IMG/VR virus record: IMGVR_UViG_3300045988_049076
Length of the DNA stretch: 30,642 nt
Strand: one strand, 5' to 3'
Origin: a virus
The notes beneath the pieces are model-generated. The model saw only the letters and a program-made list of their open reading frames with translations, made no database searches and was not told the origin of the DNA. Made by a program: the position numbers and the translations under genes. Shown here one piece after another: positions 11,501 through 22,706 of this stretch (the stretch's first letter is position 1; each line of letters begins with the position of its first letter).

Positions 11501-11542
11501 ATCATATCATGAACGGCGTGCCGTGATGATGCGACACGCCGT
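11501..11542 (-). promoter_or_regulatory. Early promoter module: extended -10 TGATATGAT plus inverted repeat ACGGCGTG-N14-CACGCCGT containing the 10-mer CGACACGCCG
   Basis: The reverse complement of 11501-11509 is TGATATGAT. The inverted repeat arms are at 11513-11520 and 11535-11542, and the 10-mer is at 11532-11541. The geometry is the same as at 15301-15344. Confidence 0.55.
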
Positions 11543-11550
11543 AGGATGGG

Positions 11551-11877
11551 CTACTCGAAGAAGACCTCGCCGCCGAGCACGGCATTGAGTCGCTGCCGGT
11601 ATTCCTTGCGGGGGTGTCTCAGCCCGTTTTCCCACATCATGATGATGGTCGGACTAGATACGTGGATCAGCTTAGCTAGGTCGGCTTGTGTGTATCCGTG
11701 CCGGTTTCTCCAGTATTTGAGTCGCTGCTGGCTGGTCGTCTGCGTCCGGATGAGGCGGTAGCTGACTGGGGTGTGCTTGCCGTCGCTTTTGATTGCGTAG
11801 AAGAGTCCCGTGTACGCGTTCTGGATGACCTCGACGGTTCCGCCTTTGATGGTGGCGGTGAATGGTTTCGTTGCCAT
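11551..11877 (-). CDS. XRE-family helix-turn-helix DNA-binding protein (repressor-like)
   Basis: 108 aa. The C-terminal half, QQRLKYWRNRHGYTQADLAKLIHVSSPTIIMMWENGLRHP, is a classic HTH_3 pattern. AAGGAAACC lies before the ATG. Confidence 0.7.
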   Translation of the reverse strand: MATKPFTATIKGGTVEVIQNAYTGLFYAIKSDGKHTPVSYRLIRTQTTSQQRLKYWRNRHGYTQADLAKLIHVSSPTIIMMWENGLRHPRKEYRQRLNAVLGGEVFFE

Positions 11878-11884
11878 GGTTTCC

Positions 11885-12169
11885 TTACTTTCTTTCGTCT
11901 GGTGTTGTGGCGTCGAAGAGTTCTTGCATGAGTTCGTCGCCTTTCTTGGTGAGTTGCCATCTCCAGCATGGGCGGTTGTGTCTGCTGGTGCCGTTTCTGT
12001 CGATGCGGTGGGCGTATCCGGCTCGTTCGAGTTCGACTAGGCGGCTTCTCAGGCTTTGAGGCGTGTCGTGGTAGCGTATCGTTTCGGCCATGTCGGTCAG
12101 CCGTTCCTGGGTGATTGGTTTTCCCGCGAGGCGGAGGAGCGTGAGTACGTGGAGTTTCGGAGTGTCCAT
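11885..12169 (-). CDS. Winged-helix DNA-binding protein
   Basis: Internal ATG at 12169 of ORF 11885..12319. The product begins MDTPKLHVLTLLRLAGKPITQERL and contains RSRLVELERAGYAHRIDR, a MarR/ArsR-like recognition helix plus wing. It has a TAATG overlap with the upstream gene. Confidence 0.6.
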   Translation of the reverse strand: MDTPKLHVLTLLRLAGKPITQERLTDMAETIRYHDTPQSLRSRLVELERAGYAHRIDRNGTSRHNRPCWRWQLTKKGDELMQELFDATTPDERK

Positions 12170-12504
12170 TAGAGTCTGCTTTCTGCTTGGTGTCGGTAGT
12201 ATGCGGCGATGCTTGTGGCTACGGCCCATCCGGTGAGCCATTTGATGCCGAAGCGGATGTGGTGGATCTTCGCTGTCGCAGCCCATGCGGGGAGTGCCGT
12301 GTAGGGGCTGAGGCACCATCCGCAGTAGGCGAGCGTGCCGAGGCTGCGGATGGTGTTGTTGTCTGCGTTTTCGGTTTTAGTGGTGAGTTGTTTTCGGAGT
12401 TTGGCGAAGATGTCTCCGGGGCCGGGGGAGAGTTGACTGACCGTGGTTGCGTATCCTGCTGTGAGGCCGGCTGTGATTACGGCTGTCCACCATTCGGTTT
12501 TCAT
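12169..12504 (-). CDS. Small integral membrane protein with CxxC motif (possibly DUF1360-like)
   Basis: Internal ATG at 12504 of ORF 12169..12924. The product begins MKTEWWTAVITAGLTAGYATTV and contains GTLAYCGWCLSPYTALPAWAA. It has an ATGA overlap with the upstream gene. Confidence 0.55.
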   Translation of the reverse strand: MKTEWWTAVITAGLTAGYATTVSQLSPGPGDIFAKLRKQLTTKTENADNNTIRSLGTLAYCGWCLSPYTALPAWAATAKIHHIRFGIKWLTGWAVATSIAAYYRHQAESRL

Positions 12505-12788
12505 TTTGTGGTCCTTTCGTTGTTCGTGATGATTTCTGCTGGAGTGTAGTGGATTGTCCCGCCGGACAGTATCAGGGGGTATTTGATTGGTTTGTTTTGG
12601 TTTTTGGCGATGGTACGGATGAGGGTTGCTGTCGGGCTGCCGGAGGTGACGATGTGTAGTTGTTTCCACATCCATTGTGCTGTCGTGCGGCATGAGTCCA
12701 GGAACTTCGCGGTTTCGGGCCGGCATGTGGGGCAGCCGTCGAATAGGACGTAGATGTCCGGGCTGTTGAGGAGAGTGTCGATGGTCAT
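12501..12788 (-). CDS. Glutaredoxin/NrdH-like small redoxin
   Basis: 95 aa. YVLFDGCPTCRPETAKFL (CxxC after a beta strand) and KYPLILSGGTIHYTPAEI fit the thioredoxin-fold glutaredoxin pattern. Confidence 0.6.
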   Translation of the reverse strand: MTIDTLLNSPDIYVLFDGCPTCRPETAKFLDSCRTTAQWMWKQLHIVTSGSPTATLIRTIAKNQNKPIKYPLILSGGTIHYTPAEIITNNERTTK

Positions 12789-13690
12789 TAGAATGATGCT
12801 CCTGTTGCTTCCGTAATGGTGTCGATGATGTGCAATGTGTTGAGTTGTTTGCGTTTGTGGCTGGTGATGAGTGGTTTGATACTTCTCCTGTTGATTGGGA
12901 TAACTTGGTGTCGTGCGTTTCCATAGACTCGTGGATCGTACATTGAGAAGTAGAGGGTTTCGAGCGTGTCGCAGACGACGAAGTATTGGAGCACTTGCGC
13001 GCGGTACGCGTCCGGGATGAAGTCCATGTTGGTGGCTTTAAGGCTTGTTGCTGTTGGGGGTAGGACTTGTGCGGCTGCGTCGGCGAGGTTCCCTGGTATT
13101 TCTCGTTGGCGGATGCGCTGTGAGTGGATCATCCATGGGATGACGGCTTGGAGGTGGTAGGCGCTTCCGAGGCTTTTGCATTCGATGGCCCATGTCGGGG
13201 TTGCAGAATTCTGGTAGGCGTCTGGGCTGCATGCGATTCGGTCGTCTTCGTCGCTTTCCCAGATGCCGCAGTCGGTTATGCAGTCTTCTTGCTTGTATCC
13301 GAGTTGTTGGAGGGTGAGTTGGATGTTTTCTGGTTCGAGCCTGTGGCCGCGTTCCATGGGGTTTTCTCCGTCTGGTTGTTCGGCCATGGTTTCGGCGAGG
13401 AATTTCCAGAAGTCGATGCCTACTTTGAGGCGTTTGTTTTTTGCTTCGGTTTCGGTGAGTAGTTCGTCGTATTTTAGTGCCGTCCGGAAGTGTTCTTCGG
13501 TCTCATCTTTTGATGTTGCTTTTTTTGCTTGTTCGAGTGCCTTGTCCCGGTATTTGATGATTTTTTTGGTGTCGGTTTGCTGGTAGTGGTCTAGGGCTAG
13601 GCTGCCGCTTTTGGTGCCGGTGATGCGTCCGGTGCGTTCTTGGAGCCATGCGTCGGTGTTGTTGGGTTGGGATAGGTTGATGATTTTCAT
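12788..13690 (-). CDS. YqaJ-like / lambda Exo-type recombination exonuclease (PD-(D/E)XK)
   Basis: 300 aa. It has the N-terminal DAWLQERTGRITGTKSGSL motif typical of YqaJ, plus IACSPDAY...WAIECKS (D...E.K). An ERF annealase gene lies nearby. Confidence 0.75.
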   Translation of the reverse strand: MKIINLSQPNNTDAWLQERTGRITGTKSGSLALDHYQQTDTKKIIKYRDKALEQAKKATSKDETEEHFRTALKYDELLTETEAKNKRLKVGIDFWKFLAETMAEQPDGENPMERGHRLEPENIQLTLQQLGYKQEDCITDCGIWESDEDDRIACSPDAYQNSATPTWAIECKSLGSAYHLQAVIPWMIHSQRIRQREIPGNLADAAAQVLPPTATSLKATNMDFIPDAYRAQVLQYFVVCDTLETLYFSMYDPRVYGNARHQVIPINRRSIKPLITSHKRKQLNTLHIIDTITEATGASF

Positions 13691-13719
13691 TGTCGGTCCT
13701 TTCTTGAGGTGATATTCTT

Positions 13720-13761
13720 ACTATATCACATGCGGAAGTGAGGTGATATGTCGGCGTGTCG
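13720..13761 (-). promoter_or_regulatory. Promoter-like element for the exonuclease operon segment
   Basis: The reverse complement of 13720-13730 is TGTGATATAGT (extended -10). The 10-mer (CGGCGTGTCG on the + strand) is at 13752-13761. GAGGTGATAT direct repeats are at 13706-13715 and 13740-13749. Confidence 0.5.
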
Positions 13762-21797: not shown

Positions 21798-21800
21798 GGC

Positions 21801-22211
21801 TTACCTCCCGGTGCTTCCGAAGCCGTTGTCGCCACGCTCGGACGGGTTGAACGCAGACACCTGCTCCAATGGTTCGCAGACCACCGGAATCACAACCAGC
21901 TGCGTGACTTTGTCCCCGGCCTCGAACTCATGGTCTTCGCCGCCATGGTTGTAGAGCTTGACCACGATGCTTCCGGTATAACCCTCATCGATGAGCCCGG
22001 CGCTCGTGATGTCGTGCTTGACGTTGAGTCCGCTCTTGCTGACGAGCAGTCCGGCGCATCCACACGGCAATGCCACGTGCACGCCAGTATCGACTATCGC
22101 GTTCCCGTACGCCGGCACCGTCACGGCCTTTGGTGTACGCAGATCAAGTCCCGCGTCGGTCTCGTGGCCTCGTGACGGCATGTACGCTCCGTTGTCCAGC
22201 ATGATTTCCAT
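21801..22211 (-). CDS. dut: dUTP diphosphatase
   Basis: 136 aa with the dUTPase motifs DAGLDL, SKSGL, GLIDEGYTGSI and RGDNGFGSTGR. AAAGGAGG RBS. Confidence 0.9.
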   Translation of the reverse strand: MEIMLDNGAYMPSRGHETDAGLDLRTPKAVTVPAYGNAIVDTGVHVALPCGCAGLLVSKSGLNVKHDITSAGLIDEGYTGSIVVKLYNHGGEDHEFEAGDKVTQLVVIPVVCEPLEQVSAFNPSERGDNGFGSTGR

Positions 22212-22297
22212 TTAGCGCCTCCTTTTGTGGTAGTATTATGAGCGTCGGGGCGTTTTATTGGTTTCCCCGCCCCGGCTACTTTCCTTTGAGTAATAAT

Positions 22298-22335
22298 AAT
22301 CCCCGCCTCCGGTCGAAAGACCAGGGGCGGGGATT
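22298..22335. terminator. Strong hairpin terminator with GAAA tetraloop between the poly-Asn gene and dut
   Basis: AATCCCCGCC (22298-22307) pairs with GGCGGGGATT (22326-22335), with an inner GGTC-GAAA-GACC. T-rich sequence follows on both strands. Confidence 0.75.
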
Positions 22336-22354
22336 GTCTTATCTTGAGTCAGTG

Positions 22355-22591
22355 TCAGCGCTTGCGGTATCCGCCGTTAATGCTCTTGACGAGCCAGTAG
22401 AAGAAGTAGATCCCGCAGGTGAAGAAGGAGTATACGCACACCTTGATGAAGCCGGGGGCTTTCTTCTTGCCGCTGTCGTCCGGCTGTGCAGTAACGTTGT
22501 TGATGATGATCGGCTGCGGGGCGGTCTGCGGCTGGACGTTCTCGTTGTTGTTGTTGTTGTTGTTGTTGTTGTTGTTGTTGTGTTCGGTCAT
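22355..22591 (-). CDS. Small membrane protein with N-terminal poly-Asn tract (C-terminal TCGIY..YW motif, DUF4234-like)
   Basis: ATG at 22591 follows AAGGAAAT. The product is MTEH-N12-ENVQPQ...FIKVCVYSFFTCGIYFFYWLVKSING. It forms a single-gene unit between the promoter at 22648-22678 and the terminator at 22298-22335. Confidence 0.65.
   Translation of the reverse strand: MTEHNNNNNNNNNNNNENVQPQTAPQPIIINNVTAQPDDSGKKKAPGFIKVCVYSFFTCGIYFFYWLVKSINGGYRKR
22544..22579. repeat. Perfect trinucleotide microsatellite (GTT)12 = (AAC)12 on the coding strand
   Basis: Counted directly as 36 nt. It encodes the 12-Asn run. Confidence 0.95.
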
Positions 22592-22647
22592 TTTTATTTC
22601 CTTTCTAGGTTGTAGGATTTGCATGTCCTACGTTGTTTGATACACAC

Positions 22648-22678
22648 ACAATATCACGATCACTCTCACGACACGCCG
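22648..22678 (-). promoter_or_regulatory. Promoter-like element with exact 10-mer for the poly-Asn gene
   Basis: The reverse complement of 22648-22656 is TGATATTGT. CGACACGCCG lies at 22669-22678, 15 nt upstream. A half-site GCACGCCGA lies at 22698-22706. Confidence 0.5.
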
Positions 22679-22706
22679 AACGGACAACAGCCCATCCGCA
22701 CGCCGA

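What the first reader, a model, noticed from the sequence alone, without database searches (positions are those of the whole stretch)
11501..22706. A 10-mer, CGACACGCCG, recurs at at least seven intergenic promoter-like sites of the early region (stoperator- or regulon-like)
Exact copies:
- On the + strand as CGACACGCCG: 11532-11541, 15333-15342, 19573-19582, 22669-22678.
- On the + strand as the reverse complement CGGCGTGTCG: 13752-13761, 18223-18232.
- A 9/10 copy: 17257-17266.
A given 10-mer is expected about 0.06 times in 2 x 30.6 kb under uniform composition. All of these copies lie between genes, next to extended -10-like elements of the form TG(A/T)TAT(A/T/G)(A/G/T)T. At three sites the gap to the -10 hexamer is 14-15 nt. 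Only 9/10 matches were noticed inside coding sequence (12059-12068, 27675-27684), but my scan was by eye and not exhaustive. The pattern recalls the asymmetric stoperator sites of cluster A mycobacteriophages and phage-specific promoter boxes. A single phage (or host) factor probably recognises all internal early promoters. The late and rightward promoters (TTGCAA-N17 type) and the first leftward promoter lack the motif.
Basis: partly seen in the sequence, partly recalled or inferred. Interest (0 to 1): 0.7.

Follow-up and report, generated by a model that had tools for sequence, protein, structure and literature searches.

The report
Ten-base box marking phage early promoters
A 10-base sequence sits at fixed distances upstream of every promoter of the replication-gene arm of an uncultured, probably Bifidobacterium-infecting, phage family. 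It most likely is the docking site of one small phage protein that switches these promoters together, which is a familiar kind of phage circuit in an unstudied group.

Summary
CGACACGCCG/CGGCGTGTCG occurs exactly 6 times (0.22 expected), all intergenic, plus functional-looking 9/10 copies. One coordinate is off by one.

The window is a complete circular ~30.6 kb phage genome with two divergent arms. All boxes lie in the leftward replication/recombination arm (22624 to 11186).

In more than 40 related ~30 kb metagenomic phages there are 129 distinct contexts of the exact box. In 121 of them (94%, against 10% of random positions) the box sits at one of three geometries relative to a TAnnnT -10 hexamer: forward 14-15 nt upstream, forward 25-26 nt, or reversed 26-27 nt. 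No -35 hexamer is present. In the 25-26 class the box is also the 5' arm of a terminator hairpin.

The rightward promoters are host-consensus (TTGnnn-N17-TATAAT) and box-free. The one at 22878-22906 makes a leaderless mRNA for a 59-aa Xis/BldC-like winged-helix protein. Its DNA-binding core is nearly invariant in the family, and it is my candidate binder.

Best reading: a phage-specific promoter box standing in for the -35 element (MotA-box-like activation is favoured, early shut-off repression is the main rival). It is not a stoperator system. It is a new member of a known kind and of moderate interest.

The parts
22669..22678 (-). Box CGGCGTGTCG of P_L1, forward, 15 nt upstream of the -10. 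Drives the first leftward gene, 22355-22624.
   Evidence: orthologous copies in relatives
22648..22656 (-). Extended -10 TGATATTGT of P_L1
22696..22705 (-). Degenerate second copy (CGGCGTGCGG), 27 nt upstream of the P_L1 box and 1 nt from the TTGCAA -35 of rightward P_R1
19572..19581 (-). Box of P_L2, forward, 14 nt upstream of the -10. Drives 19070-19417 and the replication initiator 18237-19025.
19552..19560 (-). Extended -10 TGATATACT of P_L2
18223..18232 (+). Box of P_L3, reversed relative to leftward transcription, 27 nt upstream of the -10 TAATAT (18190-18195). It lies right after the Rep stop codon and drives the DnaC-like loader 17316-18161.
   Evidence: the reversed orientation is conserved in relatives
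17257..17266 (-). 9/10 box (CGGCGTGTCA) of P_L4, forward, 15 nt upstream of the -10 TATAGT (17236-17241, no TG). Exact in most relatives.
17276..17306 (-). Intrinsic terminator (GGCGACACG-loop-CGTGCCGCC followed by T6) ending the DnaC operon, immediately upstream of the P_L4 box
15333..15342 (-). Box of P_L5, forward, 26 nt upstream of the extended -10 TGTTATATT (15301-15309). It forms the 5' arm of the hairpin 15314-15343. Drives 14895-15251 and Erf 14273-14866.
15315..15321 (+). Inverted partner (CACGCCG on the minus strand), the 3' arm of the P_L5 hairpin
13752..13761 (+). Box in the divergent region. It is reversed and 26 nt upstream of the extended -10 TGATATAGT (13720-13728) of P_L6 (RecE-like exonuclease operon 13690 to 11551). 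It is also the distal copy for the rightward promoter.
13782..13791 (+). Variant box CGGCGTGCCG, forward, 15 nt upstream of the extended -10 TGATATTAT (13804-13812) of the rightward gene 13845-14171
11532..11541 (-). Box of P_L7, forward, 25 nt upstream of the extended -10 TGATATGAT (11501-11509). It forms the 5' arm of the hairpin 11513-11542. Drives the last leftward gene, 11186-11452.
11514..11523 (+). Inverted partner (CGGCACGCCG on the minus strand), the 3' arm of the P_L7 hairpin
22914..23093 (+). Candidate box-binding protein: a 59-aa excisionase/BldC-like winged helix
22878..22906 (+). P_R2, TTGCAA-N17-TATCAT, with the ATG 7 nt after the -10 (leaderless). Box-free host-type promoter of the winged-helix gene.
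22707..22735 (+). P_R1, TTGCAA-N17-TATAGT. Host-type rightward promoter, back-to-back with P_L1.

Best explanation
The 10-mer (functional orientation CGGCGTGTCG, most conserved core GGCGTGTC) is the DNA recognition box of one sequence-specific transcription factor. It is built into every promoter of the leftward replication/recombination arm, and into the promoter of one rightward-transcribed accessory gene inside that arm.

These promoters have a sigma-A-type -10 (usually TGnTAnnnT) but no -35 hexamer. The box occupies about -37 to -28, or one helical turn further upstream. In the upstream position it is either forward, paired with an inverted copy, or reversed.

I infer that the factor is the phage's own 59-aa Xis/BldC-like winged-helix protein (22914-23093). 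It is made at once from a host-consensus, box-free, leaderless promoter. I also infer that it acts positively, as a -35 surrogate or recruiter, so that the replication arm fires as a delayed-early regulon.

Shown: the motif, its enrichment, its conservation, the three fixed geometries, the absence of a -35, the terminator fusion, and the fold and conservation of the candidate protein.

Inferred: that a protein binds the box, which protein it is, and the sign of regulation.
For: Enrichment and intergenic restriction:
- 6 exact copies against 0.22 expected; 6 of 6 are non-coding.

Conservation under divergence:
- The 15 relatives found through Rep (39-79% identical) each carry 2-6 exact boxes in the stretch fetched. 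The 14 unrelated phages that the same scan returned through a shared Rep domain carry none.
- Information content is maximal over the 10-mer and low in the flanks.

Geometry:
- 121 of 129 distinct box contexts have a -10-like hexamer at forward 14-15 nt (57), forward 25-26 nt (28) or reversed 26-27 nt (36). Only 10% of random positions do.
- The forward positions differ by about one helical turn.

No -35 element:
- At 17-nt spacing the hexamer is GCGTGT or CACAAT (1 of 6 matches; read directly from the sequences).
- Two promoters also lack TGn (18190 and 17236). P_L4 follows an intrinsic terminator directly. In a host whose vegetative promoters use TTGACA-N17-TATAAT (B. breve, PMC5746004) such promoters look dependent on a factor.

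Two promoter types:
- All 34 distinct upstream regions of the winged-helix gene are TTGnnn-N16-18-TAnnnT (mostly TATAAT) followed by 5-9 nt and the ATG.

The candidate protein:
- Its helix-turn-helix and wing are almost invariant (27 columns invariant and 15 nearly so across 26 sequences), while other early proteins are 40-90% identical.
- AlphaFold2 mean pLDDT is 79. The best PDB folds are Pukovnik Xis (4j2n, TM 0.63-0.67, rmsd 1.1) and BldC. These proteins bind asymmetric sites as monomers or head-to-tail multimers.
- The HTH_3 gene 11551-11877 is absent from L004 and L011, and the Ant gene from L070. All three still have boxes.
- In L065 a 9/10 box sits reversed, 26 nt from the -10 and just upstream of the -35 of the winged-helix gene's own promoter.

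Precedents:
- The T4 MotA box replaces the -35 at 12 +/- 1 bp from the -10, and half of those promoters carry TGn (PMC2988021).
- D29 Gp36, an Xis/BldC-like regulator of a lytic actinophage, binds GC-rich repeats (PMC12266134).
Against: - There is no binding, transcription-start or expression data. Every promoter is predicted from sequence.
- Extended -10 promoters can work without a -35 or an activator, and -10-only promoters are common in Actinobacteria. The boxes could therefore be operators of a repressor; D29 Gp36, the nearest characterised protein, is a repressor.
- The winged-helix assignment rests on conservation, position and fold only. Pfam HTH_17 scores below its cut-off (24.6 against 27 bits).
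- No covariation between protein and box could be established. Lineages with an unchanged recognition helix also show 9/10 boxes (L071).
- A host factor cannot be excluded, because no host genome could be searched.
- Two orientations and three spacings ask a lot of one simple activator.
Confidence: 0.45

Rival explanations
1. Same box and the same kind of binder, but negative control. The extended -10 promoters fire on host RNA polymerase alone at the start of infection. The small winged-helix protein (or another phage protein) then accumulates and occupies the -35 region, shutting the replication arm down. This would be an early shut-off, Cro-like or D29 Gp36-like.
For: - Six of eight promoters have a near-consensus TGnTAnnnT that could be self-sufficient.
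- In four promoters the box overlaps -37 to -28, and in the hairpin class the proximal copy lies in the spacer. Both are classical occlusion positions.
- The closest characterised protein, D29 Gp36 (Xis/BldC-like, from a lytic actinophage), represses.
- The box lies between back-to-back promoters at 22640-22740, like a switch region.
Against: - Two promoters (18190, 17236) have neither TGn nor a -35, and would be weak even before repression.
- A single reversed box at about -48 to -39 (P_L3, P_L6) overlaps no core element.
- The tight coupling of orientation and spacing (+/- 1 nt in 94% of contexts) is more than occlusion requires, although descent from common modules could explain it.
Confidence: 0.3
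2. The box is read by a host component, either a host transcription factor or an alternative form of RNA polymerase holoenzyme. The phage family has plugged its early arm into a host regulon.
For: - The 10-mer is near-invariant across phages whose proteins have diverged to 40-60% identity.
- No phage protein has been shown to bind it.
Against: - The -10 elements are of the vegetative sigma-A type.
- The cultured B. asteroides phages BlindBasel1 and BlindUri1 are the nearest known relatives. BlindBasel1, the one checked, lacks the box.
- The motif string is absent from the searchable literature.
- A phage protein with an equally invariant DNA-binding core exists.
- Divergent lineages do drift to 9/10 boxes.
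- No host genome could be searched.
Confidence: 0.1
3. A stoperator-type system: an immunity repressor binds asymmetric sites between genes and blocks elongating polymerase.
For: The site is asymmetric and lies in several short intergenic regions.
Against: - The sites occur in both orientations relative to transcription (5 forward and 2 reversed on the leftward arm).
- They sit at fixed positions upstream of -10 hexamers rather than anywhere between genes, and only in one arm.
- No integrase or repressor was detected, and no relatives were found in 185,579 genomes.
Confidence: 0.03
4. The repeat is structural, not a protein site. It would be the arm of terminator or RNA hairpins, or a promoter-terminator cassette copied around the genome, with no function of its own.
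For: - At 11532 and 15333 the box forms strong hairpins (-21 and -22 kcal/mol, z -4.2 and -5.0), followed by a T-run in most relatives.
- The terminator at 17282-17306 has a box-like arm.
Against: - Boxes at 22669 and 19572 form no structure (z +0.6 and -0.2).
- The first promoter has no upstream leftward transcript that could be terminated.
- The hairpin arms keep their sequence rather than merely their pairing. The proximal arm is conserved as GGCACGCC, which gives a G.U pair, and the box itself is exact.
- The flanks differ between classes, so this is not recent copying.
Confidence: 0.05

Closest known systems
T4 middle promoters: MotA box with AsiA (sigma appropriation)
   Same: A phage-specific box of about 10 bp replaces the -35 hexamer at a fixed short distance from a host-type -10 (12 +/- 1 bp in T4, 14-15 here). 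About half or more of the promoters also carry TGn. The factor is made from early host-type promoters (PMC2988021).
   Different: - No MotA or AsiA homologue was detected (Pfam/PHROGs scans).
- The candidate binder has an excisionase fold.
- The box also works from one turn further upstream and in reverse orientation.
- The host is an actinobacterium.
- Activation is unproven.
Mycobacteriophage D29 Gp36 (Xis/BldC-like regulator of a lytic actinophage)
   Same: A small MerR-like/Xis-like winged helix encoded by a phage without a functional integration system. The best structural matches are the same (Pukovnik Xis, BldC). It binds a GC-rich asymmetric repeat (AGGCGGC-N13-AGGCGGC) and regulates phage genes (PMC12266134).
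   Different: - Gp36 was mapped to one site, a pair of direct repeats at the end of gp1, and it represses. Here there are about 8 promoter-embedded sites, mostly single.
- I did not test sequence similarity between the two proteins.
- Binding here is only inferred.
Streptomyces BldC
   Same: A fold match (6ama and 6amk). It is a protein of about 60-70 aa that recognises asymmetric repeats without a dimerisation domain and sits at promoters (PMC5859096).
   Different: BldC is a cellular developmental regulator with AT-rich direct repeats and cooperative head-to-tail multimers. Most sites here are single GC-rich 10-mers.
Cluster A mycobacteriophage operators and stoperators (L5 gp71 type)
   Same: A short asymmetric site repeated in intergenic regions of an actinophage. 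One copy overlaps the -35 region of the early promoter (PMC9283540; the last point is from my own knowledge of L5 P-left).
   Different: Stoperators number more than 20, are genome-wide, have a single orientation relative to transcription, block elongation, and are bound by a two-domain immunity repressor of temperate phages. None of this holds here.
MarA/SoxS/Rob marboxes (my own knowledge: Martin, Rosner and colleagues, 1999)
   Same: A monomeric factor with an asymmetric box whose orientation is coupled to its distance from the -10. One orientation overlaps the -35 and the opposite orientation lies further upstream.
   Different: These are AraC-family cellular proteins with a 20-bp box. The resemblance is recalled from memory and was not tested.
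phiC31 conserved inverted repeats (CIRs) bound by repressor c (my own knowledge)
   Same: A highly conserved short element repeated in intergenic regions of the early region of an actinophage, often beside promoters and terminators.
   Different: CIRs are 17-bp palindromes bound by the repressor of a temperate phage. Here the element is asymmetric, and only 2 of 8 sites are palindromic.

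Membership tests
Stoperators (cluster A mycobacteriophages) | Asymmetric short site | tested here: met
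   The 10-mer is not self-complementary. Most sites have no inverted partner.
Stoperators (cluster A mycobacteriophages) | More than 20 sites distributed over the whole genome | tested here: not met
   There are 6 exact copies and about 5 variant copies, all between 11514 and 22705. None lies in the ~18.5 kb rightward arm apart from chance-level 9/10 hits inside genes.
Stoperators (cluster A mycobacteriophages) | Orientation follows the direction of transcription | tested here: not met
   The leftward promoters use the box forward (5) or reversed (2). The reversed orientation is conserved at orthologous sites.
Stoperators (cluster A mycobacteriophages) | Temperate phage with an immunity repressor | tested here: not met
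   The PHROGs/Pfam scans of early-arm ORFs found no integrase and no repressor of that type. Two scans of 185,579 genomes found no relatives.
T4-type middle promoter (MotA box, sigma appropriation) | Phage box replaces the -35 at a fixed spacing from a host-type -10 | tested here: met
   True of 4 of 8 window promoters (gap 14-15 nt, no -35 hexamer) and of 57 distinct family contexts. The other 4 promoters use a position one turn further upstream.
T4-type middle promoter (MotA box, sigma appropriation) | MotA and AsiA homologues encoded | tested here: not met
   No such Pfam or PHROG hit in any early-arm ORF scanned.
T4-type middle promoter (MotA box, sigma appropriation) | Transcription depends on the phage factor | not testable with these tools
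   Needs reporter assays or in-vitro transcription.
Excisionase/BldC-like (MerR-type) winged helix: the candidate binder 22914-23093 | Fold of strand, two helices and a two-strand wing | tested here: met
   AlphaFold2 pLDDT 79, with H10-16, H21-30, E35-38 and E41-44. Foldseek top hits are 4j2n Pukovnik Xis (prob 1.00, TM 0.63-0.67, rmsd 1.1) and BldC 6ama/6amk.
Excisionase/BldC-like (MerR-type) winged helix: the candidate binder 22914-23093 | Sequence membership (Pfam HTH_17 or Exc) | tested here: inconclusive
   HTH_17 scores 24.6 bits against a cut-off of 27, and Exc 21.8 against 23. A profile search against lambda Xis gives E = 0.017. Sources name homologues 'excisionase family DNA binding protein' or 'PrtN'.
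Excisionase/BldC-like (MerR-type) winged helix: the candidate binder 22914-23093 | Binds the 10-mer | not testable with these tools
   Needs EMSA, footprinting or ChIP.
Sigma-A extended -10 promoters | TGnTAnnnT with a transcription start 6-8 nt downstream | tested here: inconclusive
   The sequence element is present at 6 of 8 sites, and TAnnnT at all 8. The consensus scan finds none of them because they lack a -35. No transcription-start data are available.

The most novel reading that the evidence does not exclude
An excisionase-fold protein of 59 residues acts as a MotA-like -35 surrogate in virulent Bifidobacterium phages. It is made from a leaderless host-consensus promoter and binds a 10-bp box as a monomer. 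It recruits or re-targets host sigma-A polymerase to eight -35-less promoters, working from two helically phased positions with an orientation rule. In two modules the same box doubles as a terminator arm, so that termination of one unit and activation of the next share 30 bp. This would be a second, independently evolved solution to sigma appropriation, and a transcriptional role for the 'orphan Xis' genes common in lytic actinophages.
Probability: 0.25. Interest if true: 0.6.

Novelty: new member of a known kind. Interest (0 to 1): 0.4.

Why it matters
Phages of bifidobacteria are almost unstudied at the regulatory level, and this family appears widespread in metagenomes: single 90%-identity protein clusters hold from hundreds to over a thousand member sequences.

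The box gives a ready-made map of eight transcription units. It also offers a testable pairing between a 10-bp site and a 59-aa protein, and a compact, possibly inducible promoter module (box plus extended -10) for Bifidobacterium genetics.

If the excisionase-like protein is the binder, that would add to the D29 Gp36 evidence that 'orphan Xis' genes in lytic actinophages are transcription regulators.

Conceptually it is a familiar phage strategy, so it is useful rather than surprising.

Tried and rejected
- Gene map. My first map placed 9400-11089 on the minus strand. Pfam and tblastn showed that the real gene is the plus-strand amidase 9950-10792, with a holin-like ORF at 9765-9938. The box regulon therefore does not include the lysis genes.
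- HTH_3 protein 11551-11877 as binder: rejected, because it is missing from L004 and L011, which keep their boxes.
- Ant (Bro-N/KilAC) as binder: rejected, because it is missing from L070, which keeps a 9/10 box at the first leftward promoter.
- The 81-aa protein 19871-20116: very conserved, but it has an in-frame stop in L003 and L005 and is truncated in L010. It has no DNA-binding signature.
- RNA-structure reading: only the 25-26 nt class folds.
- Rfam and tRNA scans of the window found nothing.
- A literature search for the motif string returned only primers in unrelated papers.
- Two genome-contig scans (Erf, and the winged-helix alignment) found no relatives. Host assignment therefore rests on terminase similarity to B. 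asteroides phages (49.6%), amidase similarity to Bifidobacterium proteins (up to 65%) and an 87% nucleotide match to B. dentium phages.
- Co-occurrence test of the winged-helix protein with the box outside the family: uninformative. All 69 homologues found are at least 75% identical and lie in the same phage family.
- Protein-box covariation in divergent members (L065, L067, L070, L071): too few cases and no clear pattern.

Full report
**1. The observation**

CGACACGCCG occurs exactly six times on the two strands (11532+, 13752-, 15333+, 18223-, 19572+, 22669+). Dinucleotide-preserving shuffles give 0.22 +/- 0.48, and none of 100 shuffles reaches six.

With one mismatch allowed there are 13 hits against 4.87 expected. 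Three of the seven inexact hits are intergenic and lie beside exact copies or -10 elements (17257, 11514, 13782). The other four (5858, 12059, 17957, 27675) are inside genes and match the chance expectation.

All exact copies lie in the ~11.7% of the window that is non-coding (p = 2.5e-6). The 7-mer core CGGCGTG has 11 of its 22 copies there.

**2. Context**

The window's first and last 40 nt are identical, and they lie inside a small ORF with a collagen-like (Gly-Pro-Ala)n repeat. The window is therefore a complete, circularly assembled genome of ~30.6 kb.

GC3 profiles, PHROGs and Pfam give two divergent arms:
- The leftward arm runs from 22624 to 11186. It carries dUTPase, a RusA-like resolvase, a replication initiator, a DnaC-like loader, a nucleotide kinase, Erf, a RecE-like exonuclease, a MarR-like winged-helix protein and an HTH_3 protein.
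- The rightward arm runs from 22914, across the junction, to 10792. It carries a 59-aa winged helix, Ant, SSB, terminase, portal, capsid, tail genes, a holin-like ORF and an amidase endolysin at 9950-10792.

My first map wrongly placed 9400-11089 on the minus strand. The 378-aa minus-strand ORF is the shadow of the amidase.

I found no integrase. Two scans of 185,579 bacterial and archaeal genomes found no relatives, so the phage is probably virulent.

The host is probably Bifidobacterium:
- The large terminase is 49.6% identical to those of the B. asteroides phages BlindBasel1 and BlindUri1.
- The nearest named cellular amidases come from B. tissieri, B. scardovii and B. choerinum.
- 319 nt of gene 13845-14171 are 87% identical to B. 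dentium phages.
- The ribosome-binding sites are AAAGGA-type.

**3. Anatomy of the sites**

Read in the direction of the gene served, each box has a TAnnnT hexamer at a fixed distance.

| Promoter | Box start | Box as read | Gap to the -10 hexamer (nt) | -10 region |
|---|---|---|---|---|
| P_L1 | 22669 | CGGCGTGTCG (forward) | 15 | tgaTATTGT |
| P_L2 | 19572 | CGGCGTGTCG (forward) | 14 | tgaTATACT |
| P_L4 | 17257 | CGGCGTGTCA (forward, 9/10) | 15 | gggTATAGT |
| Rightward, gene 13845 | 13782 | CGGCGTGCCG (forward, variant) | 15 | tgaTATTAT |
| P_L5 | 15333 | CGGCGTGTCG (forward) | 26 | tgtTATATT |
| P_L7 | 11532 | CGGCGTGTCG (forward) | 25 | tgaTATGAT |
| P_L3 | 18223 | CGACACGCCG (reversed) | 27 | aggTAATAT |
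| P_L6 | 13752 | CGACACGCCG (reversed) | 26 | tgaTATAGT |

None of the eight has a -35-like hexamer. At 17-nt spacing the sequence is GCGTGT or CACAAT, which is 1 of 6 matches. That is why the sigma-70 consensus scan found none of them.

That scan did find the two rightward promoters, TTGCAA-N17-TATAGT (22707) and TTGCAA-N17-TATCAT (22878).

In the 25-26 nt class the box pairs with an inverted copy 14 nt away. This forms hairpins of -21 and -22 kcal/mol (z -4.2 and -5.0). In most relatives the hairpin is followed by TTTTAT, which runs into the extended -10. It is thus a terminator for the upstream unit fused to the promoter of the next unit. Boxes at 22669 and 19572 form no structure. P_L4 has a separate intrinsic terminator (17282-17306, then T6) immediately upstream of its box.

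**4. Relatives**

A scan of viral contigs with the replication initiator found 15 contigs of ~21-31 kb, mostly 28-31 kb (Rep 39-79% identical). Each has 2-6 exact boxes in the stretch fetched. The 14 unrelated phages picked up through a shared Rep domain have none.

Adding loci found through the winged-helix protein gives 129 distinct 140-nt contexts of the exact box:
- 57 are forward at 14-15 nt.
- 28 are forward at 25-26 nt.
- 36 are reversed at 26-27 nt.
- 8 fit none of these; 5 of them lie inside genes.

Only 10% of random positions meet the same -10 criterion.

Information content is saturated over the 10-mer and low in the flanks, apart from the -10 and some 5'-UTR elements. Proteins of the same genomes are 40-90% identical, so the box is held by selection, not by recent copying.

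Orthologous sites keep both orientation and spacing. One example is the reversed copy directly after the Rep stop codon.

More divergent members show 9/10 variants (GGGCGTGTCG, TGGCGTGTCG, CGGAGTGTCG, CGGCGTGTTG, CGGCATGTCG). The most constant core is GGCGTGTC. BlindBasel1 has no box. The motif string does not occur in the searchable literature except as parts of primers.

**5. Who binds it**

The DNA-binding candidates are the following.
- HTH_3 protein 11551-11877. It is missing from L004 and L011, which keep their boxes.
- Ant (Bro-N/KilAC). It is missing from L070.
- A MarR-like winged-helix protein at 11885-12319. It is present throughout at 59-86% identity and remains possible.
- A 59-aa protein at 22914-23093.

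The last is the best fit, for these reasons.
- Its helix-turn-helix and wing (VPEYAxRWKLNIQTVRRFIREGRLHAVKVGRCYFL) are almost invariant in 26 representatives of the 69 clusters found. Its C-terminal tail varies freely.
- Its model (pLDDT 79) matches mycobacteriophage Pukovnik Xis and Streptomyces BldC best. A profile search hits lambda Xis weakly, and Pfam HTH_17 and Exc fall just below their cut-offs.
- Proteins of this fold bind asymmetric sites as monomers or head-to-tail arrays (PMC5859096). That suits a non-palindromic 10-mer.
- In all 34 distinct family sequences its gene is preceded by TTGnnn-N16-18-TAnnnT (mostly TATAAT), with the ATG 5-9 nt later. This is a host-consensus, leaderless, box-free promoter. 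B. breve vegetative promoters are TTGACA-N17-TATAAT (PMC5746004).
- In L065 a 9/10 box lies reversed, 26 nt from the -10 and just upstream of the -35 of this gene's own promoter.

All of this is circumstantial. Binding has not been shown.

**6. Mechanism**

That the box is a promoter element read by a protein is, I think, about 85% likely. The sign of regulation is open. I favour activation, with the box acting as a surrogate for the -35 element, for four reasons.
- No promoter has a -35 hexamer. Two also lack TGn, and one of these follows a terminator directly, so it must initiate on its own.
- A single reversed box at about -48 to -39 overlaps no core element, but it is a classical activator position.
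- The three geometries are narrow (+/- 1 nt), and the two forward positions are about one helical turn apart. That suggests a fixed geometry with respect to polymerase.
- The factor's own promoter is of the host type, which gives a simple immediate-early to delayed-early cascade.

The close formal parallel is the T4 MotA box: 9-10 bp, 12 +/- 1 bp from the -10, replacing the -35, with half of the promoters carrying TGn (PMC2988021).

The main rival is repression. Extended -10 promoters may be self-sufficient, and the box overlaps the -35 region. The only characterised phage protein of this type, D29 Gp36, binds GC-rich repeats and represses (PMC12266134).

A host factor cannot be excluded, because no host genome could be searched. 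The stoperator model fails on copy number, distribution, orientation and lifestyle (PMC9283540).

**7. Verdict**

The finding is real and well conserved, and the regulon idea is right. The stoperator analogy is not. The box belongs to the known class of phage-specific promoter boxes, but in an unstudied phage family and with a plausible excisionase-fold regulator.

Its unusual details are the coupling of orientation to distance and the double use of the box as a terminator arm.

Interest is moderate (0.4). Novelty: a new member of a known kind.

Noticed in passing
window 30462-30642 joined to 1-155: The first and last 40 nt of the window are identical, so this is a circular assembly. The junction lies inside a 98-aa ORF with (Gly-Pro-Ala)n collagen-like repeats (9-nt unit GGTCCCGCT), just after the 602-aa capsid-like gene. 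It may be a head decoration protein.
   Followed up: partly
window 20117-21461: About 1.3 kb without a convincing ORF. It holds three CTGCAGAAT-N-TGCAG near-palindromes (~21238-21300), an AT-rich stretch and an AGAGAGAAAGAAAGA palindrome (21145-21170). This is a possible replication origin. The repeats are not conserved in relatives whose Rep differs. A TGcTATAAT extended -10 on the minus strand precedes about 300 nt of GC-rich sequence. There is no Rfam or tRNA hit.
   Followed up: partly
window 22707-22820: The host-type promoter P_R1 (TTGCAA-N17-TATAGT) would make an RNA of only about 80 nt, ending at a strong intrinsic terminator (CTCAACCGGG...CCCGGTTGAG followed by T7, 22775-22820), upstream of the second promoter P_R2. 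It could be a small RNA or a leader/attenuator in the switch region.
   Followed up: no
window 13720-13740, 15285-15309, 17225-17241, 22636-22656 and relatives: The extended -10 and the predicted start region often form a TGATAT-N7-ATATCA palindrome. ATATCA/TGATAT has 10 of its 19 copies non-coding (p = 1.6e-5). This may be a second operator overlapping the -10 and the start (for example for the HTH_3 protein), or only a preference of the initiation region.
   Followed up: partly
window 13845-14171 (+): A rightward accessory gene of about 108 aa inside the leftward arm. Of the loci compared, only L015 has it at high identity, and L004 and L011 have weak matches. It is 87% nucleotide-identical to the terminal 319 bp of the phi29-like B. 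dentium phages BD811P1 and BD811P3. It nevertheless has its own two-box promoter, so a horizontally shared gene has been wired into the regulon. It has no Pfam or PHROG family.
   Followed up: partly
window 9400-11089: The long minus-strand ORFs (115, 70 and 378 aa) are probably shadows. The real genes are on the plus strand: a holin-like ORF at 9765-9938 and the Amidase_2 endolysin at 9950-10792 (84% identical to the L004 amidase). One shadow ORF still hit phrog_1397 at E = 3.6e-12.
   Followed up: yes
window 19070-19417 (-): An ORF between the P_L2 box and the Rep gene has no counterpart in any of the 15 relatives, where Rep starts about 160 nt after the box. It has a weak HTH_20 hit (E = 0.0097). 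It looks like an insertion into a conserved 5' UTR that contains a conserved hairpin.
   Followed up: no
window 19871-20116 (-); L003 9298-9537, L005 2245-2484, L010 9712-9816: An 81-aa protein of unknown function is among the most conserved early proteins (65-93% identity), with an invariant C-terminus NPVTALSKLGGILYNRSLFSSFIEE. It carries an in-frame stop in L003 and L005 and is truncated in L010.
   Followed up: no
L003 6076, L007 5640, L071 11861 (variant at L068 10905): An exact box also lies inside a coding sequence in several relatives (in L071, inside an Ant-like gene), on the antisense strand and with no -10 nearby. It is probably kept by coding constraint, but an internal binding site is not excluded.
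   Followed up: no
L067 2796: In one divergent relative the hairpin-class box is TGGCGTGTCG and its partner ends in ...CACGCCA. Both arms have changed symmetrically. In the window the base pair just outside the box is A..T at 11532 and G..C at 15333. These are hints that pairing of the terminator stem is also under selection.
   Followed up: partly
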